Shown: in pieces, positions 9,649 to 42,771 of the stretch
Layout of the letters: each line of letters starts with the position of its first letter
Numbering within the stretch: position 1 is the stretch's first letter
DNA from: an uncultured Candidatus Saccharibacteria bacterium
GTDB taxonomy: Bacteria; Patescibacteriota; Doudnabacteria; UBA920
NCBI GenBank assembly: GCA_964416765.1
Contig: CAYQEU010000001.1
Coordinates: forward strand, 130,541-194,540
DNA length: 64,000 bases
Direction: 5' to 3'
Position numbers and translations under genes: made by a program
Notes under the pieces: generated by a model
The model's input: only the letters and a program-made list of their open reading frames with translations
Told to the model about the DNA's origin: nothing
The model's database searches: none

Positions 9649-10449
9649 ATGGATATTATGTCTGATACTAAGAAGCCCAGACCACGCAGCGGCGTGGCTG
9701 AATTGTTCCGGGAAAACCTGCTTCAGATCATGGAAAGGAAACTCCATTGGTCTGACCCAGCTTTTGCCGGTCTCGTACCGAAAGACCTTATGGTTTTTCA
9801 TTTTCAAAACGAATATGCCGTATTCGTTCAGCCATTTCCCGACTATATGGAAAACGTCGCAAAACGTTGTCCGGTTAAGGAAGTAAGGGATGACCTAGTG
9901 AGCAACATGGAAGAGGAGCGCACCGGCATGCATTATGCCGGACGACCCCATCCGGAGTTGTTCCTGGAGATTCCGAAAGCGTTTGGCTTCGACCTCGATG
10001 AGTTCGAAGACGTTAAGCTCGGCCCCGCCGGCCGAACCTACAAAGCCTACTTAGGTTACGCTACTTTGTTCTATCCTTGGGGAGTCGGAGCGGCTATCAC
10101 CACTTTATTTCTCGAAGGGAACAGGTACGAACGTTCCGTGTTCGACCCCAGCGCGCCCAAGCGTCCAGAACCACCGCTGGAAGAACATCCTCTCGTAGCG
10201 GAATACGGAATACCAGTCGAAGCGCTTGAGCTGGTACGCGTTCACCGGGAACTCGACAGCGCCGACGGCGAGCACCGGCTTGCTGCGTGGCGCATGCTCC
10301 TGGACCACGTTCCCGAGGAGCAGTACGATGCCGTCCTTGAGGGGATGGATAAAGCACTCATGCTTTGGCGGCGTTGGCGCGAAGAAGTTGCAGCGGCGTG
10401 TGGCATCGTAAAGGGCGATAATGGCCAACCACGGTTGGCAGGCATTTGA
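9649..10449 (+). CDS. heme-oxygenase-like fold protein (CADD/PqqC/TenA family; iron-containing redox enzyme family)
   Basis: 266 aa; N-terminal FHFQNEY...EEER..H pattern typical of PF14518-like proteins; strong SD AGGAGCAGGGG; locally GC-rich (about 60%). Confidence 0.45.
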   Translation: MDIMSDTKKPRPRSGVAELFRENLLQIMERKLHWSDPAFAGLVPKDLMVFHFQNEYAVFVQPFPDYMENVAKRCPVKEVRDDLVSNMEEERTGMHYAGRPHPELFLEIPKAFGFDLDEFEDVKLGPAGRTYKAYLGYATLFYPWGVGAAITTLFLEGNRYERSVFDPSAPKRPEPPLEEHPLVAEYGIPVEALELVRVHRELDSADGEHRLAAWRMLLDHVPEEQYDAVLEGMDKALMLWRRWREEVAAACGIVKGDNGQPRLAGI

Positions 10450-10523: not shown

Positions 10524-10598
10524 TGGGGTGGCTAACGGGGATCGAACCCGTGATAACGCTGCCACAGAGCGCTGTGTTACCACTACACCATAGCCACC
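10524..10598 (-). tRNA. tRNA-His (anticodon GTG) with encoded G-1
   Basis: 8-bp acceptor including G-1:C73; anticodon loop CTGTGGC; T loop TTCGATC; encoded CCA. Confidence 0.8.
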
Positions 10599-10751: not shown

Positions 10752-10780
10752 TTGTTACTTGAAACAATATGGTGTAAAAT
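10752..10780 (+). promoter_or_regulatory. sigma70-like promoter (TTGTTA-N17-TAAAAT) for the 511-aa gene
   Basis: Hexamers with 17-nt spacer about 40 nt upstream of ATG 10817. Confidence 0.45.
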
Positions 10781-10816: not shown

Positions 10817-12352
10817 ATGGATCCCGCAGACCCAGACCCGTCTACATCGACATCAAAAGACCGCATTTTACAATCCCTCAAAGAAATAGAACAAGCAGTT
10901 TGGCGCAGAAGGCCAATTCTGGAAGAGATTGTTCAAAAACGATCCGATAAAAGTTTATACGAATATACTCAAGGCTTTATCGACATAAATCCGGTGCCGC
11001 AGCTTGAAGCGCGCAGGCCGGAGCTTTTTGCCGTGGTCCAAAAACTGTTAAGTCAGCGCTTAAGCGCCCGCGTGGCTGATGAGGTAGTTGAACAACTAAA
11101 AAAGTACCCGCTTGTTTCAACGGCTGACCATCATGGTCCCATTAACAACCCTTTTTTCGTTAACTCCAATATTATTTCAGGTATCCCTTACGTCACGGGT
11201 GCACCGGAAAAGCTAAAATACCTGGTAGATTTTTCCTTTGCCAGCATTTCCATAAACAATAGTTCTTTCCCGCGGGGGATTGAGTTTAATTCCGATATCG
11301 AAGGCACGGTTCGGATTCCGTTATTCCCGGACAAGCTGAAGATGGGGGTTGCTTACAGTATGCGCTCATTTACCCGTGAAGAACTAGACCGGGCTTTGGA
11401 TAATGTCAAAAGCAAGGAAAGAGAAACCCATATTAGCAAACAGAAGTCGGACGCGATGCAAGAATATATGGAAAAATATTATGGTGACCCGGAGGTTCTA
11501 GGGGCCAAAGATTTTTCCAGCCAAATTACAAAGCTTAACTATTTAATGTGGCCAAGCCTTTTTAGAGATGGTGAAGTGCCAAACCTGATCTATTTGGAAA
11601 TCGAAACCATTGTGGCTGAACTTCTCCAACAGTACCATTTCAAAGACACGGAATCCCTCATACACAAGTTTTTGTTTGATCCGAACTACTATAAATTGGT
11701 GCTGCGCTGCTTTGAAGGTATTGATGGCGCGTTTTCGGTAGATGAAGGGCGCGGCAGTTATATGTTTTGGGCCCTGGATGATAAATGCCGCCGGGTCGCT
11801 TTGCATCTTAAAGAAGGCCGTTTGGTTTCCAATAATGGCGAATATGATTTTGCATACACACCGGAAGGCATGGCTAAGGCTCTCGAAAACAAACAGGTGT
11901 TTCCGGGTATGCTGCTTTGCTATTTGATAATTGCACTTTACTACGGGATGAAATGTTTGGGCGGCTTTAGCCAGGTCCATGACCTGACTTTAACCAAGGA
12001 AGCCTGGATGGAATTCCTGATCCATCTCGGTAAAAGGGGAGAGGTAGATGCTGTTATGCCCATGCAGACGAAAGAGTACGGGGGAGACGGGATGCTGTTG
12101 GCTTATCTGCCATCAGAAGACCAGGTTCGACCAGCTTATGGGATAGAAATGGGTATAGGTGAAGTGAGTCAAACTTTTGGGGATTATATTGAATCGGCAA
12201 AACGGGTAAACATTTTGGAAGCCGTGGAACCGATGATGCCGGAGATCTATCAAGTTCTTTACCCCCAGGATGAGCGCATCGCTGATTTGAGCGATCTCAC
12301 CCTCTCGGACATCGCCAAGGCAATCGGGCTTTTGGAGAAGCTGCGCGGATAA
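10817..12352 (+). CDS. conserved-looking hypothetical protein, 511 aa, no recognisable catalytic motif
   Basis: Long uninterrupted ORF with own promoter; soluble; segments such as STADHHGPINNPFF and GGFSQVHDLT; no family assignment possible by eye. Confidence 0.55.
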   Translation: MDPADPDPSTSTSKDRILQSLKEIEQAVWRRRPILEEIVQKRSDKSLYEYTQGFIDINPVPQLEARRPELFAVVQKLLSQRLSARVADEVVEQLKKYPLVSTADHHGPINNPFFVNSNIISGIPYVTGAPEKLKYLVDFSFASISINNSSFPRGIEFNSDIEGTVRIPLFPDKLKMGVAYSMRSFTREELDRALDNVKSKERETHISKQKSDAMQEYMEKYYGDPEVLGAKDFSSQITKLNYLMWPSLFRDGEVPNLIYLEIETIVAELLQQYHFKDTESLIHKFLFDPNYYKLVLRCFEGIDGAFSVDEGRGSYMFWALDDKCRRVALHLKEGRLVSNNGEYDFAYTPEGMAKALENKQVFPGMLLCYLIIALYYGMKCLGGFSQVHDLTLTKEAWMEFLIHLGKRGEVDAVMPMQTKEYGGDGMLLAYLPSEDQVRPAYGIEMGIGEVSQTFGDYIESAKRVNILEAVEPMMPEIYQVLYPQDERIADLSDLTLSDIAKAIGLLEKLRG

Positions 12353-12381: not shown

Positions 12382-13110
12382 ATGGAAGCAATATTATTTG
12401 GCATCGGGACTTTTATTTCTACCTTGGCCGGCGGTTATTTCGGCATTCGTAACCGGGAACGGCTGCATTTGATCATCAGTTTTACCGCTGGTGTGTTAAT
12501 CGCGGTTGTCTTTTTTGATATTATCCCGGAAATATTCGCGTCCCTGCAGCAAAACAATCTGAACATTACAGGTGCCATGGTGGCGGTGGTGGTGGGTTTT
12601 CTTGCCATTCATGCTCTGGAAAAGATTGCGGTGGTGCATACTAGCCATGAAGAGGAGTATTCTGACCACAAACACCCGCTGGTTGGTAAAATTGGCGCGG
12701 CGGGACTGGCTTTCCATAGCTTTCTCGACGGCGTGGGTATTGGGCTCGGATTCCACGTTAGTCCTCACGTCGGTTTGCTGGTTGCGATCGCCGTAATTGC
12801 CCACGACTTTTCTGACGGTCTAAATACCGTCAGCGTGATGCTACTTAACCGCAACACCTTAAAGAAGTCCGTAAAGTATTTGGTTTTGGATGCCGTGGCT
12901 CCGCTGGTTGGACTGGCCTTAACCTACTTATTTGTAATCCCTGAGCGGTGGCTGGTAATTTACCTGGGTTTCTTCGCGGGATTCCTCCTCTATATTGGGG
13001 CTAGTGACCTGCTCCCGGAAGCCCACAGCAAACAAAGCTCGTTAAAAATTGTCGGGCTTACAGTTGCGGGAGTACTATTTATATTCCTCGTGACCCGCTT
13101 AGCTACGTAA
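12382..13110 (+). CDS. ZIP family metal (zinc) transporter, ZupT-like
   Basis: 242 aa, 8 TM; HSFLDGVGIG and HDFSDGL metal-binding motifs. Confidence 0.75.
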   Translation: MEAILFGIGTFISTLAGGYFGIRNRERLHLIISFTAGVLIAVVFFDIIPEIFASLQQNNLNITGAMVAVVVGFLAIHALEKIAVVHTSHEEEYSDHKHPLVGKIGAAGLAFHSFLDGVGIGLGFHVSPHVGLLVAIAVIAHDFSDGLNTVSVMLLNRNTLKKSVKYLVLDAVAPLVGLALTYLFVIPERWLVIYLGFFAGFLLYIGASDLLPEAHSKQSSLKIVGLTVAGVLFIFLVTRLAT

Positions 13111-13897
13111 TTGTTGTTTCCTGGAGTTCCGCGTCGCCAAACCAACCGGTGGCGCGTTTTTTTATTTCGGGCGTTAGGGAAGTTACAAACAATTCCCGTG
13201 AACCGGTCCTTGATATAGTTGTTTCCAGCTCAGGGTGGCGTTGTAAATAAGCCTTAACTTTGGCGGGGACTAAGTCGCCCTGGGCGATGATATTTATGTC
13301 CGGCAGATCATCTCGCAGCTTTTTGGCCAACAGCTCATAGTGGGTGCAGCCCAAAATTAAAGTCTGGATCCCTTCTTCAAGGAGAGGTTTAAGATATTCC
13401 AAGGCTTCTCGTTCCGCTTCGGCTAAGTTACCCTGCTCAATTAGGGGTACTAGTTTAGGAGCAGCCTGCTCCAACACCTCAGCCTCAGGCAAAAGTTTTT
13501 TTAACTCCAGGGAATAAACTTGCGATTTAACTGTTGCCGCGGTAGCCAGAACTCCAATTTTTGGATGGGGTGACTTGGCTATCATTTCGACGGTCGGAAT
13601 AATGACTCCCAGCACGCGGCGGTTATCAAATTGTCCGGGGAGGAAACACTGTTGGATTTTCCGAAGAGCCTGCGCGGACGCGGTATTGCACGCCACTATA
13701 ATCAATTCACAGCCCTGCTTAAACAGCCAATTCACTGCCTGTTCCGTGTACAGGTAAATCGCCTCCGGGGTTTTGTCGCCATAAGGCACCCGGGCGGTAT
13801 CGCCGAGATAAACATAATCATATTCCGGCAGTTCCTGGGCAATGCGCTTAAGCACTAACAAACCGCCCAGGCCGGAATCAAATATACCTATTTTCAT
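13103..13897 (-). CDS. murI: glutamate racemase
   Basis: MKIGIFDSGLGGL, YLGDTARVPYG, ACNTASA, GCTHY motifs. Confidence 0.9.
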   Translation of the reverse strand: MKIGIFDSGLGGLLVLKRIAQELPEYDYVYLGDTARVPYGDKTPEAIYLYTEQAVNWLFKQGCELIIVACNTASAQALRKIQQCFLPGQFDNRRVLGVIIPTVEMIAKSPHPKIGVLATAATVKSQVYSLELKKLLPEAEVLEQAAPKLVPLIEQGNLAEAEREALEYLKPLLEEGIQTLILGCTHYELLAKKLRDDLPDINIIAQGDLVPAKVKAYLQRHPELETTISRTGSRELFVTSLTPEIKKRATGWFGDAELQETTIT

Positions 13898-13912: not shown

Positions 13913-15550
13913 CTACCTTAGGTGGGCTGTAAAGAATTCTGGGGTAGCCTCAATTTTCTTGTTGGGGTTGAATATATCGGCCGGATCGAAGATCATCTTG
14001 GTTTCCATGAATAAATCGCAAATCTCGCGGGAATACATCTTTTTAAGGAAGAATCCGCGGATAAGGCCGTCGTTGTGTTCCGCGCTCATTGATCCGCCAT
14101 ATTCCTTAATCAGGTCAAAAACCTGGTTGGACATCTCGAGGATGATTGCTCGGTGCTTTGGGTCCTTAAAGTCCATCAGTGGCATAATGTGGAAGTTAGC
14201 GTCACCCGCGTGTCCGGCAATGGTGTACACGAAAGAGGGGAACTTCGCGAAGATTTCGTATAGGCGGGGCATGAACTCAGGCAGCTGGTCCGGATGCACT
14301 ATTATATCTTCAATAAAGCAAGCCGGGACTTTATCTATATTATGAAGCCTTAGCATGTTGTAACTCTCGCGACGGATGGTCCAATACTTCTGCAAACTTT
14401 CAAAGGTCTGGGAAATTTTAGCGTTCATGTGGTATTTGTCCTGAATTTCATTATGCGCCTGTTCAAGCTTTTCCTTAACTTCTTCCGGGTTGTACCCAGT
14501 AAATTCGGCGAACAGAATGGTGGCCGGAAGACGACCGAATAATTTTCGCAAAACGTCCGGAATGAGACTGAAAGCTAATTTCAACCGGTTGCCTTTCATT
14601 TTGGCGAAGATTTCGGGCAGGTATGTAATGGCCAGGCTCAAGGTTGCCTTATCATACAATTCAAAAGCCTCAGGCTTGTACTGTTTGATGGTATTAACAA
14701 TGTTGCCGATCTCGTGGAGGTCGGGCAGGGAAATCACCAAGAGTCCGCTGGACCGCTTAGGCTTCACCAAACGGAACTTAATCTTGGTAATTATTCCTAG
14801 TGTCCCTTGGGAACCCACGATAACCTGCGCGAGGTCAAACTTTCCGGTTTCTTTATCATAGATGTTCCAAAGGTAATAGCCGGAAGAGTTTTTTGAGGTA
14901 GAGGGCCTAGCCTGTTTGATGGCATCGTAATGGCCCGAAACCATCTCATACATTTTCCGGTAGAGGTTTCCTTCAAAGTCCTTTTGGGCAATTTTGGCTT
15001 TTAAACCGGCTTCGTCCAGGGCTTCCACAAAATATTCTTTACCGTCCTCCAGAACCACCCAAAGCCCCTCAACGAAATCCTTAACTTGTCCGTAAGAGAG
15101 GGATTTTTCGCCTCCCGCGTTATTCCCAACCATGCCGCCCAGCGCGCAATACGCTTTGGAAGCAGGGTAGGCGGGCATGAGCAGTCCCCGGGCTAGTGTT
15201 GATACTTCAAAATCCCGGTACCATACCCCGGGTTGGGCGATGGCGTAATCCTGGCCGACTTCTTCAATCCGGTTCATGTGTTCCATTACGTCAACAATAA
15301 TGGAGTCGTTAATGGAACCTCCGGTCATGTCGCTTCCGGCCGCGCGCGGGGTAATGGAAAGCTCAGGATGGTCGACTTTCTTCTCTCGTACCCACTTCAC
15401 CAACGCCTTTACGTCATCGCTGTCTTTAGGGCGAACTACGCATGTAGGCTGGATGCTGAAAATGCTGTCATCCCTGCTGTATTTTGTTAACGTTTCCTGG
15501 TCCGTGAGGACTTCACCTTGGATTTTTTGTTTCAGTTCATCAAAGTTCAT
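13913..15550 (-). CDS. FAD-linked oxidase (GlcD / D-lactate dehydrogenase / alkyl-DHAP-synthase superfamily)
   Basis: 545 aa; N-terminal FAD_binding_4 (PCMH) pattern RAAGSDMTGGS; C-terminal FAD-oxidase_C region. Confidence 0.8.
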   Translation of the reverse strand: MNFDELKQKIQGEVLTDQETLTKYSRDDSIFSIQPTCVVRPKDSDDVKALVKWVREKKVDHPELSITPRAAGSDMTGGSINDSIIVDVMEHMNRIEEVGQDYAIAQPGVWYRDFEVSTLARGLLMPAYPASKAYCALGGMVGNNAGGEKSLSYGQVKDFVEGLWVVLEDGKEYFVEALDEAGLKAKIAQKDFEGNLYRKMYEMVSGHYDAIKQARPSTSKNSSGYYLWNIYDKETGKFDLAQVIVGSQGTLGIITKIKFRLVKPKRSSGLLVISLPDLHEIGNIVNTIKQYKPEAFELYDKATLSLAITYLPEIFAKMKGNRLKLAFSLIPDVLRKLFGRLPATILFAEFTGYNPEEVKEKLEQAHNEIQDKYHMNAKISQTFESLQKYWTIRRESYNMLRLHNIDKVPACFIEDIIVHPDQLPEFMPRLYEIFAKFPSFVYTIAGHAGDANFHIMPLMDFKDPKHRAIILEMSNQVFDLIKEYGGSMSAEHNDGLIRGFFLKKMYSREICDLFMETKMIFDPADIFNPNKKIEATPEFFTAHLR

Positions 15551-24127: not shown

Positions 24128-24204
24128 TGGCGAGCCCGGCAGGGATCGAACCTGCGACCTAGAGATTAGAAGTCTCTCGCTCTATCCAACTGAGCTACGG
24201 GCTC
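24128..24204 (-). tRNA. tRNA-Arg (anticodon TCT)
   Basis: Acceptor GAGCCCG/CGGGCTC, anticodon stem AGAGA/TCTCT, loop CTTCTAA, T loop TTCGATC, encoded CCA. Confidence 0.85.
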
Positions 24205-24236
24205 CCGCCAAACTATCTTATCATTTTCGTGTTATT

Positions 24237-24260
24237 TAAAAAACCGCCTATGGCGGTTTT
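24237..24260. terminator. hairpin AAAACCGCC-tat-GGCGGTTTT between the two tRNA-Arg genes
   Basis: Perfect 9-bp stem with A/T flanks; bidirectional terminator-like. Confidence 0.5.
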
Positions 24261-24261
24261 A

Positions 24262-24338
24262 TGGTGCACCCGACAGGATTCGAACCTATGACCTCCCGCT
24301 CCGCAAGCGGACGCTCTATCCAACTGAGCTACGGGTGC
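24262..24338 (-). tRNA. tRNA-Arg (anticodon GCG)
   Basis: Acceptor GCACCCG/CGGGTGC, anticodon stem TCCGC/GCGGG, loop TTGCGGA (34-36 = GCG), T loop TTCGAAT, discriminator A, encoded CCA. Confidence 0.75.
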
Positions 24339-24373
24339 GCGCCGTATCACACTTCCGCAATTTTACGATATTT

Positions 24374-25333
24374 TTACGATTTTAGCAAGGGTTCTAACAC
24401 GGCTTTTACTTCGTCCGCAGTCTTGCTTTCGTATAGTTCGGCACGGATTTCAGCAGCTCCATCGAACCCGTTGATATAGGCTTTAAAGTGACGCTTCATG
24501 ATGTCGAACGGTTTTACGCCGTTAAATTCCTTGTCATATAGCGCAACGTGTTCCAAAAGTACTTCGATTTTTTCTTCACGGCTTGGGTTATGTTCGGAGA
24601 ATAACCAAGGGTTGCCGAAAATAGCGCGACCCAGCATGATGCCGTCGCACCCGGATTCTTTGGCTTTATTGCGCCCATCTTCCAAATTTTTTATGTCACC
24701 ATTCCCGGTTATTAACGGCCGATTTTCTTTAGTGGTATTTTCATGAATAAATTTGACGATTTCTGGCATGAGCTCCCAGTGCGCGTCCACTTTGGACATT
24801 TCTTTCCTGGTTCGGAGGTGAACGGCAATGCCAGCGGGTTCGGCTTTTAATAGAGCGGCGACCCATGGCTGCCAGTCTATCTTTGTGTCGCCAATTCGAA
24901 TCTTAACTGACACCGGCATTTGGCCAGCGCCCTCCTTGGCGGCGCGGATTAGCTCCTGCGCCAGTTCGGGAGTTTTGTACAAAGCAGCGCAGGAGCCCGT
25001 CTTGATAATATTTTTGTCTGGGCAGCCCATGTTGATGTCGAGCCCGTCAAAGCCCAGCTCGCGGACCAGCTTGGCCGTTTCAAGAAACTTTTCCGGTTTG
25101 GTGCCGAATACTTGTGCGACAATAGGGTGCTCGATATCGGAAAATTTAAGATGGTGCATTAGCTTATCGCGGCCAGCGCTGTTCAGCCCGTCAGTCGAGG
25201 TGAATTCGGTGTAAAACACGTTTGGTTTGCCATACTTGGCAATGACATAACGAAAAGCGGCGTCAGAAACGTCGTAGAGCGGAGCGAGCGCGAAAAATGG
25301 CCGCGGCAAATTGTCCCAGAAACCCCTATTCAT
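24374..25333 (-). CDS. dus: tRNA-dihydrouridine synthase
   Basis: 319 aa; FMN TIM-barrel Dus pattern (LAPLYDVSDAAFR, GCPDKN..GSCAAL..P); C-terminal helical domain. Confidence 0.85.
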   Translation of the reverse strand: MNRGFWDNLPRPFFALAPLYDVSDAAFRYVIAKYGKPNVFYTEFTSTDGLNSAGRDKLMHHLKFSDIEHPIVAQVFGTKPEKFLETAKLVRELGFDGLDINMGCPDKNIIKTGSCAALYKTPELAQELIRAAKEGAGQMPVSVKIRIGDTKIDWQPWVAALLKAEPAGIAVHLRTRKEMSKVDAHWELMPEIVKFIHENTTKENRPLITGNGDIKNLEDGRNKAKESGCDGIMLGRAIFGNPWLFSEHNPSREEKIEVLLEHVALYDKEFNGVKPFDIMKRHFKAYINGFDGAAEIRAELYESKTADEVKAVLEPLLKS

Positions 25334-25371
25334 GGAAGATATTGTACTCGGTTTAACCGCCCTAGTCTAGG

Positions 25372-26370
25372 TTACTTTTTGTTGTGGAATTTTTTATGGA
25401 TTTCGCGCAACCCCTGGTTGGTAATGTGAGTGTAGATTTGAGTAGTGGTAATTGAGGCGTGCCCAAGCATAGTTTGCACGCTGCGAATGTCAGCACCGTT
25501 TTGCAATAAGTCAGTAGCGAAGGAATGGCGGAAAGTGTGCGGCGAGACCGGGTGCATGATACCGGCGAGCTTGGCATACTTTTGCACGATCCGTTGGACA
25601 CTGCGCGAGGTTAAACCGGCGGCCTGGTGCACGGAACCTTTTTTGTTTTGCCCTTCGATTTGGGCGGTTACGGAATTCCCGCGTCCAACCGAAACAAACA
25701 AGGCGGGGTTATTATCGGTTCGTTTTTTTAAGTACGCGCTTAGCGCGGCAATGGAATCGGGGGAGAGGAAAGCAAGCCTGAGTTTGTCTCCTTTGCCGCG
25801 GACGGTAAACTCGCCGCTCTGCATATTGATTTGGTCCTGCCGTAGACTCATGAGTTCCGAAACACGGACGCCGCTGGAGAAAAGCATGAGCAGGATCGCG
25901 AAATCGCGGAGGCGGATTAACTCGTTGTCTTCCTGGCTAGTGGCATGGAGTATCCTTGCCAGTTCGCTGTTGTCGAGCACGCTGACTTCGCGGGCCGGAT
26001 TTTTGGCCAACTCAATTTTGTCGGGAGCCAGGGTGTCTACGTCGCGCTTAATTAGGTATTTTAGGAAAGCCCGGACGGCAATGACATGGTAGTTTTGGGT
26101 GATGGGCTTGAAGGCGCGTCCAGTAGCCGGGTCGCGGTAGCGGTTTAACCACAGGCGATAGTTTCGGGTGGTGTCCAAATTTATCTGCTCCGGCTTGGAG
26201 ATATTATTTTCGGCGCAAAATCCTACAAACCGTTTTAAGTAGTGCTGGTAGTTCCGTACCGTAAGGAGACTTTTGTTGCGTTCTATTTCACAATATTCCA
26301 AAAACTCCCTGACATACTTCTCAAGAGGGGACTCAACGCGCTGTTTGATTGGGGTTTTTGTTTCAGCCAT
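25372..26370 (-). CDS. tyrosine site-specific recombinase, XerC/XerD-like
   Basis: 332 aa; catalytic RHSFAT...LGHASITTTQIYTHI (R, H, R, Y residues). Confidence 0.85.
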   Translation of the reverse strand: MAETKTPIKQRVESPLEKYVREFLEYCEIERNKSLLTVRNYQHYLKRFVGFCAENNISKPEQINLDTTRNYRLWLNRYRDPATGRAFKPITQNYHVIAVRAFLKYLIKRDVDTLAPDKIELAKNPAREVSVLDNSELARILHATSQEDNELIRLRDFAILLMLFSSGVRVSELMSLRQDQINMQSGEFTVRGKGDKLRLAFLSPDSIAALSAYLKKRTDNNPALFVSVGRGNSVTAQIEGQNKKGSVHQAAGLTSRSVQRIVQKYAKLAGIMHPVSPHTFRHSFATDLLQNGADIRSVQTMLGHASITTTQIYTHITNQGLREIHKKFHNKK

Positions 26371-39008: not shown

Positions 39009-39859
39009 AATTTCTTGATACTCACACCCATATAAATTTAAGGGCGTTTCGTGATGACGCGCACGAAGCCATTAGGAGAGCGCTCGACGCGGATGTTGCT
39101 ATCGTAAACGTCGGCACACAAATAGACACGAGCCGGCAGGCAGTAAACTTGCTGGAAGATTTTCCCATGAATGTCTACGCGGCCGTCGGGTTGCATCCGG
39201 TCCATACTTTTTCACACGACTTTGAAGATGAGGAAGAAGTAAAGTTTAAAACCCGGGAGGAGGGGTTTAACTATGAGGATTACAAAGCGCTTGCCAACAC
39301 CCCCCGCGTGGTAGGGATTGGGGAGTGCGGGTTGGATTATTACCGTTTGCCGCAAGACCGCGACCACGTGGAAATAAAGCGTATGCAACTGGAGGCCTTC
39401 CTCCCGCAGGTAAAATTGGCGCGGGAGCTTGATAAAGCTTTGTGCATCCATTGTCGTCCTTCTGAGGGAACCATGGACGCTTATGACGAAATCGCTGAGC
39501 TGATGAAGCAGGTCAAAAAAGACCAGCCTGATTTTCGGTTTGAAATCCATTGCTACACGGGTGACCTGCCGACAGCATTGAAATTTGTTGAAATTGGCGC
39601 TTACATGGGGATTAACGGTATTATTACCTTTGACAAGACCGGCAGGAGCGAAAGTGTGGTTAAAGGGATCCCGCTGGAAAATATTATTCTGGAAACAGAC
39701 GCGCCTTACCTCACCCCCGTGCCGCATAGAGGGAAGCGCAATGAGCCAAGTTACCTACCCTTAGTCGCCGAAAAAATTGCCGAGTGGAAAGGCGAAAGCG
39801 CTGACCGGGTAGCGGAAGTTACCACTGCAAACGCAAAGAAATTATTTAAGCTGGAATGA
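39005..39859 (+). CDS. tatD: TatD family metal-dependent hydrolase
   Basis: DTHTHIN start motif, TIM-barrel TatD pattern with conserved H/E/D. Confidence 0.85.
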   Translation: MKFLDTHTHINLRAFRDDAHEAIRRALDADVAIVNVGTQIDTSRQAVNLLEDFPMNVYAAVGLHPVHTFSHDFEDEEEVKFKTREEGFNYEDYKALANTPRVVGIGECGLDYYRLPQDRDHVEIKRMQLEAFLPQVKLARELDKALCIHCRPSEGTMDAYDEIAELMKQVKKDQPDFRFEIHCYTGDLPTALKFVEIGAYMGINGIITFDKTGRSESVVKGIPLENIILETDAPYLTPVPHRGKRNEPSYLPLVAEKIAEWKGESADRVAEVTTANAKKLFKLE

Positions 39860-42771
39860 AGTCTTACAACCCCAAACACATTGAAAAGAAGTGGCAGGAG
39901 TACTGGGAAGAGCACCAGACTTTCCACGCCAGTGATGAGAGCGGCAAACCGAAGAAATATATCCTGGTAGAATTCCCTTATCCTTCGGGCGAAGGATTGC
40001 ATATGGGGCATCTCCGCCCATATGTTGCCGGGGATGTTTACAGCCGTTACTGGCGGCTGCGGGGCCAAGACGTTATGTATCCCATGGGATGGGATGCTTT
40101 CGGCTTGCCGGCGGAAAATTACGCGATAAAAAACAATGTCCACCCGCGCGTGTCCACGGCGAAGAACATCGCCAACGCGAAACGCCAGATTCAAAGCTGG
40201 GGCCTGGGCTTTGACTGGGACAGGGAAGTAAATACTACTGATCCGGAATTTTACAAATGGACCCAGTGGATTTTTTTGCAGTTATATAAAGCCGGGTTGG
40301 CCTATGAAGCCACAGGGCTAATTAACTGGTGTCCAAAAGACAAGACTGGCTTGGCTAATGAAGAAGTTATTGATGGTAAGTGCGACCGTTGCGGCACGTT
40401 AGTAGAAAAAAAGGAACTGCGCCAATGGTATTTGAAGATTACCGCCTATGCCGAAAAATTGCTCCAAGGCCTGGAGAGCTTGCCGGAATGGCCGGAAGCA
40501 GTGAAGCTCCAGCAGGCTAACTGGATTGGAAAAAGCGTTGGCGCGGAAATAGACTTCAAACTCAACCAGAAAAACAATTATGTCATTCTGCCTGGCTACA
40601 GCAGTGATGAAACAGAAAATTTTTATCCATGGCTGGCGGAAGAGTTGTCGGCGGATGGTTCGGAAGCCCAAACAGTAGTATATAAATCGGCTACAGAACA
40701 CGCCGAACCCGAAATAATAGAGGATTTAACTGGCCGGGTTTCGCTGGACGAAGATACCGTTTTGGTAGGCCATAGCCTGGGCGGAGTCATGGCTATGAAG
40801 TTGTTGGAAAAATCCGAAGTTCAAATAGCTAAGCTAGTTCTGGTAGCAAGTTTTGCCAATCCTAAATTCAAGGATAAAGCCAGGGCTTTTGAAGATAAAC
40901 TTTCATGGAATTTTGATTTTGAAAAGATTAAGCATAACGTCCGCGAAATAATTGTCCTGAGTGATAACACTGACCATATAGTGCCCGAAGATTCAGCAGT
41001 TGAGCTTTCGGAGAAGTTAAATGCCCGCTTGATAAGATTTGATGCCGTAGCTCCTCATATTAAAGGAGTGGAAGAGCCGGAAGTTTTGTCAGCCGTAGCG
41101 AACCGTATTAAAGTGTTTACCACGAGGCCGGATACTATTTTCGGCGCCACCTATTTAGTCGTCGCTCCCGAACATCCGGTAATCGAAACTTTGGCCGCTG
41201 AAATTACAAACTGGGACGAAGTCCAGAGCTATATTGATCAGGCGAAAGCCCAGCAGGAACAACAACGCCTTGAAGAGGGGAAAGAAAAAACCGGAGTTGA
41301 GTTAAAGGGAATAAAGGCAGTTAATCCAGCTAATGGACAGGAAATTTCTGTTTGGACGGCAGACTATGTTTTGGCCAACTACGGGACTGGCGCAATAATG
41401 GCCGTACCCGCCCACGATGAACGCGACTTTGAATTTGCCCAGAAATTCGGATTGCCCGTCACTAAAGTAATTGAATCCGCGGAAGCGGAAACTTTTTTTG
41501 CGGGTGCAGGAAAACTTATAGAATCCGGTCAGTTCACTGGAATGCATTCGGAAGACGCTCTACCGCAAATGGCGAAGAAATTCGGAAAGCTGGCGGTTAA
41601 ATACAAACTTCGGGATTGGGTCTTTTCACGCCAGCGTTACTGGGGAGAGCCAATACCACTGGTACATTGCGATAAGTGTGGAATTGTACCGGTTCCTGAC
41701 AATCAACTCCCAGTAGTATTGCCCGAAGTGGAAAAATATGAACCAACCGGAACAGGGGAGTCACCCCTAGCGGCTATTTCAGAATGGGTTAATACAACCT
41801 GCCCCAACTGTGCGGGCCCCGCTAAGCGCGAAACCAACACCATGCCCCAATGGGCGGGCAGTTCTTGGTATTATTTGCGTTATACAGACCCGCATAATGA
41901 TGAGCAGTTTGCCGCGGCGGAAAAGTTAAAGCAGTGGCTGCCGGTGGACGTGTATTTTGGCGGCATGGAACATACCACGCTTCATTTGCTATATTCACGA
42001 TTTTGGCACCTTGCCCTTTATGACCAGGGCCTGGTACCAACCCCCGAACCTTACACCAAGCGCGTACCTCATGGGATAATTTTGGCGGCTGACGGGGAAA
42101 AGATGTCCAAGAGCCGCGGCAACGTGGTCAACCCAGATGATATTGTAAACCAATTCGGTGCCGACACGCTCCGCATGTATGAATTGTTCTTGGGCCCGCA
42201 CGAAGCTACTGTGTCATGGAATGACCAGGGGATTATCGGGGTCAGCCGATTTTATGAAAGAGTTTGGAAATGGATTCATGAGCAGGCGAAGAACCCTGCG
42301 GAATCCGACAGCCTTGGGGCAAAGCGCTTACTCCATCGGTTAATGAAGAAAATTGGCGACGATATTGAAGGTTTCAGGTTCAATACCGCCGTTTCCACTT
42401 TTATGGATTTCCATAACAAAGTTAAGGACCAGCAAGTTAGCTTGGATTTCCTCAAAACATTTTTGATTTTGCTTTATCCAATTGCCCCGCACATTAGCGA
42501 GGAATTGAATGAAATTATAGGCGGACAGGCGTCCTTACAAAACGCGACGTGGCCCGAATATGACCCAACCATGCTTCAAAGTGACGAGTGGAATATCGTC
42601 ATTCAGGTTAACGGTAAAGTCAAAGGAAAGCTTACGGTCCCGGCGAACATCCCTGAAGCCGAAATAGAACAGCAAGTTTTGGCAATGGAAAACATTATAG
42701 ACACCTTGGGCGGACAAACACCGCAGCGCGTGGTTCATGTGCCGGGCAAATTAATCAACATTGTTCTGTAA
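39856..42771 (+). CDS. leuS: leucine--tRNA ligase carrying an inserted alpha/beta-hydrolase (Ser_hydrolase, PF06821-like) domain
   Basis: HMGH, KMSKS, TTRPDT and GTGAIMAVPAHD editing-domain motifs present; extra ~180 aa (aa 237-418, nt 40564-41109) with YVILPGY...PWL and GHSLGG nucleophile elbow. Confidence 0.9.
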   Translation: MKSYNPKHIEKKWQEYWEEHQTFHASDESGKPKKYILVEFPYPSGEGLHMGHLRPYVAGDVYSRYWRLRGQDVMYPMGWDAFGLPAENYAIKNNVHPRVSTAKNIANAKRQIQSWGLGFDWDREVNTTDPEFYKWTQWIFLQLYKAGLAYEATGLINWCPKDKTGLANEEVIDGKCDRCGTLVEKKELRQWYLKITAYAEKLLQGLESLPEWPEAVKLQQANWIGKSVGAEIDFKLNQKNNYVILPGYSSDETENFYPWLAEELSADGSEAQTVVYKSATEHAEPEIIEDLTGRVSLDEDTVLVGHSLGGVMAMKLLEKSEVQIAKLVLVASFANPKFKDKARAFEDKLSWNFDFEKIKHNVREIIVLSDNTDHIVPEDSAVELSEKLNARLIRFDAVAPHIKGVEEPEVLSAVANRIKVFTTRPDTIFGATYLVVAPEHPVIETLAAEITNWDEVQSYIDQAKAQQEQQRLEEGKEKTGVELKGIKAVNPANGQEISVWTADYVLANYGTGAIMAVPAHDERDFEFAQKFGLPVTKVIESAEAETFFAGAGKLIESGQFTGMHSEDALPQMAKKFGKLAVKYKLRDWVFSRQRYWGEPIPLVHCDKCGIVPVPDNQLPVVLPEVEKYEPTGTGESPLAAISEWVNTTCPNCAGPAKRETNTMPQWAGSSWYYLRYTDPHNDEQFAAAEKLKQWLPVDVYFGGMEHTTLHLLYSRFWHLALYDQGLVPTPEPYTKRVPHGIILAADGEKMSKSRGNVVNPDDIVNQFGADTLRMYELFLGPHEATVSWNDQGIIGVSRFYERVWKWIHEQAKNPAESDSLGAKRLLHRLMKKIGDDIEGFRFNTAVSTFMDFHNKVKDQQVSLDFLKTFLILLYPIAPHISEELNEIIGGQASLQNATWPEYDPTMLQSDEWNIVIQVNGKVKGKLTVPANIPEAEIEQQVLAMENIIDTLGGQTPQRVVHVPGKLINIVL

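What the first reader, a model, noticed from the sequence alone, without database searches (positions are those of the whole stretch)
10817..12352. 511-aa soluble protein with no recognisable motifs, own promoter, in a metal/redox-flavoured neighbourhood
This is a long confident ORF with a promoter at 10752-10780, but I could find no signature (no Walker, Rossmann, radical-SAM, HExxH, etc.). It sits between a tRNA-His and a ZIP zinc transporter, near a GC-rich diiron heme-oxygenase-like gene and an FAD-linked oxidase. A protein of this size with no detectable family is a good candidate for a lineage-specific or undescribed enzyme.
Basis: seen in the sequence. Interest (0 to 1): 0.5.

Follow-up and report, generated by a model that had tools for sequence, protein, structure and literature searches.

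The report
CPR-specific BshC-like ligase-fold protein
This gene encodes a conserved protein seen so far only in the small-genome "candidate phyla radiation" bacteria: sequence searches recognise nothing, but its predicted structure has the catalytic fold of class I aminoacyl-tRNA synthetases and of the bacillithiol enzyme BshC, and relatives are fused or adjacent to peptide-forming ligases and amino-acid racemases, which points to an undescribed amino-acid-ligating enzyme.

The parts
10817..12352 (+). Coding sequence of the 511-aa family member (BshC-like / class I aaRS-like HUP fold)
11111..11140 (+). Residues 99-108, LVSTADHHGP: first Rossmann strand followed by the DHH loop, at the position where class I aaRS carry HIGH and BshC carries GGQQ
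   Evidence: Strand E99-103 then helix H112-127 in the model. T102 is 97% and H105 99% conserved across 121 diverse members. The mapping to the HIGH/GGQQ position is inferred from topology and motif spacing, not from a residue-level superposition.
11234..11278 (+). Residues 140-154, SFASISINNSSFPRG: end of the second strand plus the S-x-x-N-x-x-x-P-R-G loop, at the position of BshC's EDHD motif
   Evidence: S145 95%, N148 98%, P152 95%, R153 90% conserved. BshC consensus. Correspondence inferred from spacing.
11585..11608 (+). Residues 257-264, LIYLEIET: core strand ending in the near-invariant E263
   Evidence: Strand E256-261. E263 is 98% conserved.
11753..11794 (+). Residues 313-326, GSYMFWALDDKCRR: G-x-x-x-F-W ... 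R motif in the beta-rich insert
   Evidence: G313 97%, F317 97%, W318 100%, R326 93% conserved. Aligned by hhalign to BshC NLFY..ERFL.
11939..12007 (+). Residues 375-397, YYGMKCLGGFSQVHDLTLTKEAW: strand, GG loop and helix. This is the only segment that aligns to BshC (AFIAGPGEINYW..LK.AF) at profile level
   Evidence: G382 100%, G383 97%, Q386 100% conserved. hhalign local alignment with E 0.0066, prob 5.8%.
12065..12091 (+). Residues 417-425, QTKEYGGDG: loop conserved only in the long (Peribacteria-type) subfamily
   Evidence: Invariant or nearly invariant in A1, but only T418 is conserved family-wide. It is therefore not a general KMSKS equivalent.
10752..10780 (+). Weak sigma-70-like promoter match upstream of the gene
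   Evidence: 9/12 consensus match. 8 matches in the region against 3.7 +/- 2.1 in shuffles. Function not shown.
10524..10597 (-). tRNA-His(GUG), divergent, 220 bp upstream. It is one example of a recurrent tRNA adjacency of this family
   Evidence: ARAGORN. The same arrangement is in L003. Family-wide enrichment: 25/77 against 90/608.

Best explanation
The gene encodes a soluble enzyme of a large, so far uncharacterised family seen only in Patescibacteria/CPR. Its core is a class I aminoacyl-tRNA-synthetase-type (HUP) Rossmann domain, and its closest solved relative is BshC, the putative cysteine-adding enzyme of bacillithiol synthesis. By analogy with class I aaRS and MshC (established knowledge) and with what is presumed for BshC, I infer the following mechanism. 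The protein binds ATP at the strand-loop-helix that carries the DHH motif. It activates the carboxylate of an amino acid or small peptide as an acyl-adenylate. It then transfers that group to an amine acceptor, forming an amide bond. In other lineages the same domain is fused or directly adjacent to cyanophycin-synthetase-like or LdmS-like ATP-grasp peptide ligases, and to CntK-like or Asp-type amino-acid racemases. The family therefore probably supplies one ligation step in a short pathway that makes a small, possibly D-amino-acid-containing, peptide or pseudopeptide, or a cell-envelope substituent. In the window's lineage the gene stands alone. Shown here: the gene, the family, its taxonomic range, the fold, the conserved polar core, and the fusions and adjacencies. 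Inferred: ATP use, adenylate chemistry, the ligase activity and the nature of the product.
Against: No sequence model links the family to any ligase. HHalign against a BshC profile is not significant (prob 5.8%). The canonical class I signatures are absent: there is no HIGH (only DHHG at the equivalent place) and no family-wide KMSKS-like lysine. BshC itself has never been shown to act as a ligase in vitro (PMC5790435), so the closest structural analogue does not supply a proven mechanism. In the window protein's own long subfamily the partners are rare: 1 adjacent CphA-like gene, 1 adjacent CntK-like gene and 2 nearby LdmS-like genes among about 80 loci. The 64-kb window holds no ATP-grasp gene. 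I had no model coordinates, so I could not verify that the invariant residues line one pocket.
Confidence: 0.5

Rival explanations
1. It is a divergent true BshC orthologue: the cysteine-adding enzyme of a bacillithiol- or mycothiol-like low-molecular-weight thiol pathway in CPR bacteria.
For: BshC is by far the best structural match in both models. In the 64%-identical relative L003, a GT4 glycosyltransferase (BshA/MshA class) and a PIG-L deacetylase (BshB/MshB class) lie 1.4-3.2 kb downstream. The ATP-grasp partner also resembles the glutathione-synthetase half of GshAB (E 4e-29).
Against: Pfam and NCBIfam scans at E up to 10 returned no BshC model, whereas PF10079 and PF24850 are precomputed on every BshC homolog listed. 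The profile-profile comparison is not significant. BshC's invariant GGQQ, EDHD and GPGE motifs are all replaced. No long C-terminal coiled coil appears in the model. The GT4 plus PIG-L neighbours occur in 1 of about 90 loci and are absent from the window.
Confidence: 0.1
2. It acts on tRNA. It could be a non-canonical aminoacyl-tRNA synthetase, a tRNA-modifying aminoacyl ligase like GluQRS, or an aminoacyl-tRNA-dependent transferase like the cyclodipeptide synthases.
Against: There is no anticodon-binding domain match, no HIGH and no KMSKS. The adjacent tRNAs differ in identity and orientation, which fits genome-rearrangement hotspots better than a specific substrate. Ordinary aaRS are present in the window: MetRS, LeuRS and a class II enzyme. 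The fusions are to ATP-grasp ligases and racemases, not to RNA-binding domains. The enrichment is modest and only crudely corrected for phylogeny (10 of 36 clades).
Confidence: 0.15
3. It is a non-catalytic, degenerate aaRS-like scaffold or substrate-binding module that presents a substrate or primer to a partner ligase, as the N domain does in cyanophycin synthetase.
For: The canonical ATP-binding signatures are missing. BshC has resisted in-vitro reconstitution. In the fusion proteins the domain sits N-terminal to the CphA-like ATP-grasp domain, the position of CphA's own N domain; the P0233 match starts at CphA position 162.
Against: About 15 polar residues are 89-100% conserved across members that are only 25-46% identical to the window protein. 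That is typical of catalytic or ligand-binding sites. Most members, including the window gene, stand alone without the partner.
Confidence: 0.15
4. One reading: an enzyme functionally tied to the local metal/redox genes (ZIP transporter, haem-oxygenase-like diiron protein, FAD oxidase).
For: The ZIP gene starts 30 bp after the stop codon. ZIP and FUR are near the homolog in L003. One fusion partner resembles CntK of the staphylopine metallophore pathway.
Against: These neighbours recur only in the closest relatives (L003, L011) and in none of the other roughly 85 loci. The haem-oxygenase-like gene has deviant GC and lies beyond a tRNA gene. No conserved Cys/His metal site exists: C380 is 74% and H106 72% conserved.
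Confidence: 0.05

Closest known systems
BshC (bacillithiol biosynthesis cysteine-adding enzyme; Pfam PF10079 + PF24850; PDB 4wbd)
   Different: Identity is 10-13%, and Pfam and NCBIfam scans returned no BshC model. BshC's invariant GGQQ, EDHD and GPGE motifs are replaced by (T)ADHH, SxNNxxxPRG and GGFxQ. No long C-terminal coiled coil is present. There is no consistent linkage to BshA/BshB-class genes. The family is found in CPR bacteria rather than in Bacillota and Bacteroidota.
MshC (mycothiol cysteine ligase, a CysRS paralogue; PDB 3c8z) and CysRS
   Different: MshC keeps recognisable CysRS sequence motifs, including the zinc site. This family has neither, and the similarity is much weaker than to BshC.
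Class I lysyl-tRNA synthetase (PDB 1irx)
   Different: 6-11% identity; no HIGH or KMSKS; no anticodon-binding domain detected; no evidence of tRNA charging.
Two-ligase fusion enzymes: GshAB/GshF (glutamate-cysteine ligase + ATP-grasp glutathione synthetase) and cyanophycin synthetase CphA1 (N domain + ATP-grasp + Mur-ligase-like domain)
   Same: In P0194 and P0233 the family domain is fused to an ATP-grasp domain. For P0233 the best matches of that domain are the CphA G domain (E 3.5e-48) and the GshAB ATP-grasp half (E 4e-29). This is the architecture of enzymes that perform two successive amide-bond formations.
   Different: The non-ATP-grasp module here is a BshC-like HUP domain. It is not a GshA-type or a Mur-type ligase. 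The product is unknown, and the window protein itself is not fused.

Membership tests
BshC family (PF10079 / TIGR03998) | Match to a curated BshC sequence model | tested here: not met
   Pfam and NCBIfam scans at E up to 10 returned no BshC model. PF10079 and PF24850 are precomputed on every BshC homolog listed. HMM profiles A1 and A2 do not find 4wbd. HHalign A2 vs BshC alignment A3: prob 5.8%.
BshC family (PF10079 / TIGR03998) | Rossmann-type core with class I aaRS-like inserts, as in structure 4wbd | tested here: met
BshC family (PF10079 / TIGR03998) | Invariant BshC motifs GGQQ(A)G, (A)GEDHD and (A)GPGE..YW | tested here: not met
   The BshC consensus and invariant columns compared with the family consensus: the corresponding positions carry TADHHG, SxNNSSFPRG and GGFxQ.
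BshC family (PF10079 / TIGR03998) | C-terminal coiled-coil dimerisation domain (PF24850) | tested here: not met
BshC family (PF10079 / TIGR03998) | Genomic co-occurrence with BshA (GT4) and BshB (PIG-L deacetylase) | tested here: inconclusive
   GT4 plus PIG-L lie next to the gene in only 1 of about 90 loci (L003). Whole-genome co-occurrence could not be examined.
BshC family (PF10079 / TIGR03998) | Adds cysteine to GlcN-malate | not testable with these tools
   This is a biochemical property, and it has not been reconstituted even for BshC (PMC5790435).
Class I aminoacyl-tRNA synthetases | Rossmann-fold catalytic domain | tested here: met
Class I aminoacyl-tRNA synthetases | HIGH signature after the first strand | tested here: inconclusive
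   The motif D104-H105-H106-G107 follows strand 99-103 and precedes helix 112-127. H105 is 99% and H106 72% conserved. This is not the HxGH consensus, and no residue-level superposition was available.
Class I aaRS | KMSKS loop | tested here: not met
   No family-wide conserved lysine-containing loop exists. QTKEYGGDG (417-425) is confined to one subfamily, and K175, K379 and K394 are 17-67% conserved.
Class I aaRS | Anticodon-binding domain / tRNA aminoacylation | tested here: not met
   No anticodon-domain Pfam match at E up to 10. Aminoacylation itself is not testable here.
ATP-grasp ligases (CphA G domain, LdmS, RimK) | ATP-grasp fold or sequence match in the window protein itself | tested here: not met
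   The window protein has no ATP-grasp hit. Only the fusion or adjacent partners do.

The most novel reading that the evidence does not exclude
The family is the signature enzyme of an undescribed, ribosome-independent amide-bond pathway specific to CPR bacteria. In this reading a BshC-like HUP-fold ligase works in series with a cyanophycin-synthetase-like ATP-grasp ligase, fed in some lineages by a dedicated amino-acid racemase. The product would be a new D-amino-acid-containing dipeptide or pseudopeptide, a low-molecular-weight thiol, or a cyanophycin-like polymer. Solving its reaction could also show what kind of chemistry the BshC fold performs, which remains unresolved for BshC itself.
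Probability: 0.3. Interest if true: 0.75.

Novelty: new variant of a known kind. Interest (0 to 1): 0.55.

Why it matters
CPR/Patescibacteria make up a large part of bacterial diversity, have minimal metabolism, and are rich in conserved proteins of unknown function. This family is large, well conserved (about 45% identity across candidate phyla) and invisible to sequence annotation. The work here gives it a fold, a defined set of candidate active-site residues, and concrete partner enzymes (CphA-like and LdmS-like ATP-grasp ligases, CntK-like and Asp-type racemases). That turns a "hypothetical protein" into a testable hypothesis about amide-bond chemistry. It also provides the first distant relatives of BshC, an enzyme whose reaction has not been reconstituted in vitro since its identification. 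Comparing two divergent versions of the same fold, one of them naturally fused to a partner ligase, could help to work out what substrate or cofactor this fold needs.

Tried and rejected
1. **Sequence-level annotation.** Pfam, NCBIfam, phmmer against PDB, and HMM profiles of 44 and 121 members against PDB gave nothing significant. PADLOC and PHROGs also gave nothing.
2. **AFDB searches.** The Foldseek afdb50 library was unavailable, so structural neighbours among uncharacterised UniProt families were not surveyed.
3. **Conserved operon.** All-against-all clustering of ORFs in 84 loci gave a best neighbour cluster in only 16 of 83 loci. The top two clusters match the gene sizes of the DHH-family gene and IF2 seen next to the homolog in L001, and I take them to be synteny within one Peribacteria subclade (the cluster members were not individually annotated). 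I rejected them as functional partners.
4. **Bacillithiol-like pathway.** GT4 plus PIG-L next to the gene occur only in L003. Rejected as a general feature.
5. **Metal/redox context.** Not conserved. The window racemase is ordinary MurI.
6. **Profile-profile link to BshC.** I verified a BshC sequence against 4wbd and built a BshC alignment. HHalign gave only a marginal local match.
7. **Zinc-site idea (Cys/His ligands as in CysRS and MshC).** C380 is only 74% and H106 72% conserved, so I dropped it.
8. **Literature.** Searches for BshC-like proteins in Patescibacteria, for CPR cyanophycin-synthetase-like ATP-grasp enzymes, and for aaRS-like/ATP-grasp/racemase clusters found nothing relevant. 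The BshC structure paper is not held.
9. **Cluster look-up of the fused and distant members.** This gave no organism names.

Full report
**The observation**

The neighbours are also as described. tRNA-His(GUG) lies at 10524-10597 on the minus strand. A ZIP transporter is at 12382-13110, a Haem_oxygenas_2-like gene at 9649-10449, a racemase at 13103-13897 and an FAD-linked oxidase at 13913-15550. The promoter-like site at 10752-10780 is a weak 9/12 consensus match. It is one of 8 such matches in the region, where shuffled sequence gives 3.7. The 219-bp gap to the divergent tRNA makes an own promoter plausible, but that is all that can be said. The protein is hydrophilic (GRAVY -0.29). Its single borderline hydrophobic stretch is a buried core helix and strand in the model. 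Pfam, NCBIfam and PDB sequences give nothing below E about 0.05.

**The protein is not an orphan**

A word-indexed search found 239 homologs. Those listed align over 91-100% of the query, at 41-51% identity apart from seven closer relatives. An exhaustive HMMER scan of 1.84 billion representatives found 905 clusters at E <= 0.001, of which 311 are at E <= 1e-30. Nearly every member that carries a name is a "hypothetical protein" from Patescibacteria/CPR. The phyla named are Peribacteria/Peregrinibacteria, Gracilibacteria, Magasanikbacteria, Kerfeldbacteria, Liptonbacteria, Falkowbacteria, Doudnabacteria and Parcubacteria. A few MAG records carry labels such as Gammaproteobacteria, Saccharibacteria or Woesearchaeota. 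Those labels look like binning or labelling errors. None of the listed members has a precomputed Pfam domain. The full-length collinear alignment rules out a fusion of two frameshifted genes.

**The fold**

- A long series of class I aaRS, GluQRS, cyclodipeptide synthases and MshC at lower Z.

**It is not a BshC-family member**

Pfam and NCBIfam scans of the window protein returned no BshC model, whereas PF10079 and PF24850 are precomputed on every BshC homolog listed. Profiles of 44 and of 121 family members do not retrieve 4wbd. I recovered the BshC sequence, verified it against 4wbd, collected BshC homologs and built a BshC alignment. HHalign between the two profiles gives probability 5.8% and pairwise E 0.0066.

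The single local alignment is nevertheless instructive. It pairs the family's G-x-x-LFW...R..L and FYYGL.CLGGFSQV.YLT.MK.AY with BshC's NLFY..ERFL and PTLAF-IAGPGEI.YW.ELK.AF. The spacing of the four conserved strand-loop motifs is also nearly the same in the two families (my reading of the consensus strings). At those positions BshC's invariant GGQQ, EDHD and GPGE are replaced by (T)ADHH, SxNNxxxPRG and GGFxQ. The model also shows no long C-terminal coiled coil. This is the same fold with a different active site.

**Conservation**

The 121 aligned members are only 25-46% identical to the window protein. Across them, T102, H105, S145, N148, P152, R153, Q236, E263, H274, G313, F317, W318, R326, P363, G382, G383, Q386, D444 and Y478 are 89-100% conserved. 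D444 is E in the window's clade. This is an enzyme-like pattern. There is no family-wide KMSKS-like lysine. C380 is only 74% conserved, so a CysRS/MshC-type zinc site is unlikely.

**Functional linkage**

A few family members are 846-942 aa long. Their extra C-terminal domains were identified as follows:
- P0233: a cyanophycin-synthetase-like ATP-grasp domain (TIGR02068 E 3.5e-48; PDB CphA 1e-27; it also matches the GshAB ATP-grasp half at 4e-29). P0194 carries a domain 51% identical to it.
- P0128: an LdmS-like L-amino-acid ligase (E 5e-18).
- P0126: a CntK/DapF-fold histidine-racemase homolog (E 7e-26; PDB 6jis 8e-14).

The same partners also occur as separate genes:
- Genes 47-55% identical to the P0194 and P0233 ATP-grasp domains abut or overlap the family gene in L084, L085, L087, L088 and L090. 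That is 5 of the 8 short-subfamily loci sampled, although L084 and L088 are syntenic.
- A 31%-identical copy lies 35 bp upstream in L055, which belongs to the window protein's long subfamily. It matches cyanophycin synthetase at 1e-35.
- A CntK-like gene lies 20 bp downstream in L065.
- An Asp-type amino-acid racemase (TIGR00035, above its cutoff) lies directly upstream in L085, in the order tRNA-Ser, racemase, family gene, ATP-grasp.
- LdmS-like genes lie 3.5-5.5 kb away in L045 and L047.

Three different kinds of amino-acid-handling enzyme therefore associate repeatedly with this domain, by fusion and by adjacency, in separate lineages.

**What is not linked**

Clustering all ORFs of 84 loci shows no family-wide conserved neighbour. 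The best cluster occurs in 16 of 83 loci, and the top two clusters match the sizes of the DHH-family gene and IF2 seen beside the homolog in L001, which I take to be synteny within one Peribacteria subclade. The ZIP, racemase and FAD-oxidase neighbours of the window recur only in the 64%-identical relatives L003 and L011. The window's racemase is an ordinary glutamate racemase MurI (TIGR00067, 184 bits against a cutoff of 147). The GT4 plus PIG-L pair (BshA/BshB classes) next to the gene in L003 is unique to that locus. The rest of the 64-kb window is housekeeping: pyrimidine synthesis, PNPase, TGT, MetRS, LeuRS, EF-G and EF-Tu. It contains no ATP-grasp gene.

**An unexpected side observation**

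tRNA genes flank the family gene unusually often. 25 of 77 family genes with complete flanks have a tRNA within 600 bp. For the other ORFs in the same loci the figure is 90 of 608, or 14.8% (odds ratio 2.8, Fisher p 3e-4, not phylogeny-corrected). At the level of 60%-identity clades the count is 10 of 36. At least ten different tRNA identities are involved: Pro-GGG, Pro-UGG, Trp, Leu-GAG, Leu-UAG, Ser-GCU, Ser-CGA, Lys, His and Arg. Orientation varies as well. I regard this as a moderate, unexplained enrichment. It fits tRNA genes acting as rearrangement or integration hotspots at least as well as it fits a functional tie between an aaRS-fold protein and tRNA.

**Most likely mechanism**

Class I aaRS and MshC use this fold to activate an amino-acid carboxylate as an acyl-adenylate and pass it to a nucleophile (established knowledge). 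BshC is presumed to add cysteine to an amine, although its reaction has never been reconstituted (PMC5790435). The repeated coupling to ATP-grasp peptide ligases and amino-acid racemases points the same way. I therefore consider the most likely function to be an ATP-dependent amino-acid (carboxylate-amine) ligase. It would contribute one step to the synthesis of a small peptide or pseudopeptide, possibly one containing a D-amino acid, or of a cell-envelope substituent. Confidence in the fold and family assignment is about 0.9. Confidence in the ligase mechanism is about 0.5.

The rivals are:
- a true BshC-type thiol-pathway enzyme (0.1);
- a tRNA-directed enzyme (0.15);
- a non-catalytic substrate-presenting module (0.15);
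- the metal/redox reading (0.05).

**Novelty and verdict**

The fold superfamily is known. This family is not described in Pfam, NCBIfam or the literature searched. Its active-site residues differ from every characterised relative, and its range as far as sampled is CPR-specific. I rate it a new variant of a known kind, with interest 0.55.

Noticed in passing
window 10524-10597 (tRNA-His) and loci L003, L023-L091: tRNA genes of at least 10 different identities lie within 600 bp of the family gene in 25 of 77 loci, against 14.8% for other genes in the same loci (odds ratio 2.8). At the 60%-identity clade level the count is 10 of 36. The cause is unknown: it could be a rearrangement or integration hotspot, or a functional link.
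   Followed up: partly
window 39856-42771 (+): The 971-aa leucyl-tRNA synthetase carries an extra Ser_hydrolase / alpha-beta-hydrolase-like segment (PF06821, E 3e-10, residues 242-398) between the first Rossmann half and the editing domain. This is an unusual insertion for LeuRS.
   Followed up: no
window 9649-10449 (+): The Haem_oxygenas_2-like (PF14518) gene has GC 0.543 and GC3 0.573, against 0.485 for the window as a whole. This suggests a relatively recent acquisition. It is separated from the target by the tRNA-His gene.
   Followed up: partly
window 24128-26370: A tyrosine recombinase (phage-integrase family, 25372-26370, minus strand) lies about 1 kb from a pair of tRNA-Arg genes (24128-24338), with a dihydrouridine synthase gene between them. 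This could be an integration site or a housekeeping XerC/D-type gene.
   Followed up: no
L084 8418-9605; L085 8430-9527; L087 5801-6991; L088 7403-8605; L090 7367-8548: The free-standing ATP-grasp partner has no precomputed Pfam domain, yet its fused homologs match cyanophycin synthetase strongly. In L084, L087 and the fused homologs it starts with a conserved C-x-x-C-G-N-N-(P/Q)-T-(P/S)-H motif followed by a hydrophobic stretch (the called L085 gene begins after this motif; L088 and L090 were not inspected). It appears to be an undescribed ATP-grasp subfamily in its own right.
   Followed up: partly
L085 9624-10184; L087 8522-8935; L086 4899-5435: A NUDIX hydrolase gene lies directly downstream of the family/ATP-grasp pair in L085 and L087, and 1.5 kb upstream on the opposite strand in L086. 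It may be a third recurrent neighbour in the short subfamily.
   Followed up: no
L084 2144-5295; L088 931-3954: In the Magasanikbacteria loci, type-IV-secretion/conjugation-like genes (PrgI, TraC-like, TraG-type P-loop) lie a few kb upstream of the tRNA-Ser, family gene and ATP-grasp cluster.
   Followed up: no
L003 9568-13578: In the 64%-identical relative, four genes lie between the family gene and the FUR and ZIP genes: a secreted beta-propeller-like protein, a GT4 glycosyltransferase, a PIG-L deacetylase and an unknown. GT4 and PIG-L are the BshA/BshB enzyme classes. The window has none of these four genes, nor FUR, at the corresponding place.
   Followed up: partly
L012, L020, L040, L043, L053, L058, L074, L060, L011 (record titles): Several MAG records that carry this otherwise CPR-only gene are labelled Gammaproteobacteria, Woesearchaeota or Saccharibacteria. 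These are probably taxonomic mislabels or binning contamination.
   Followed up: no
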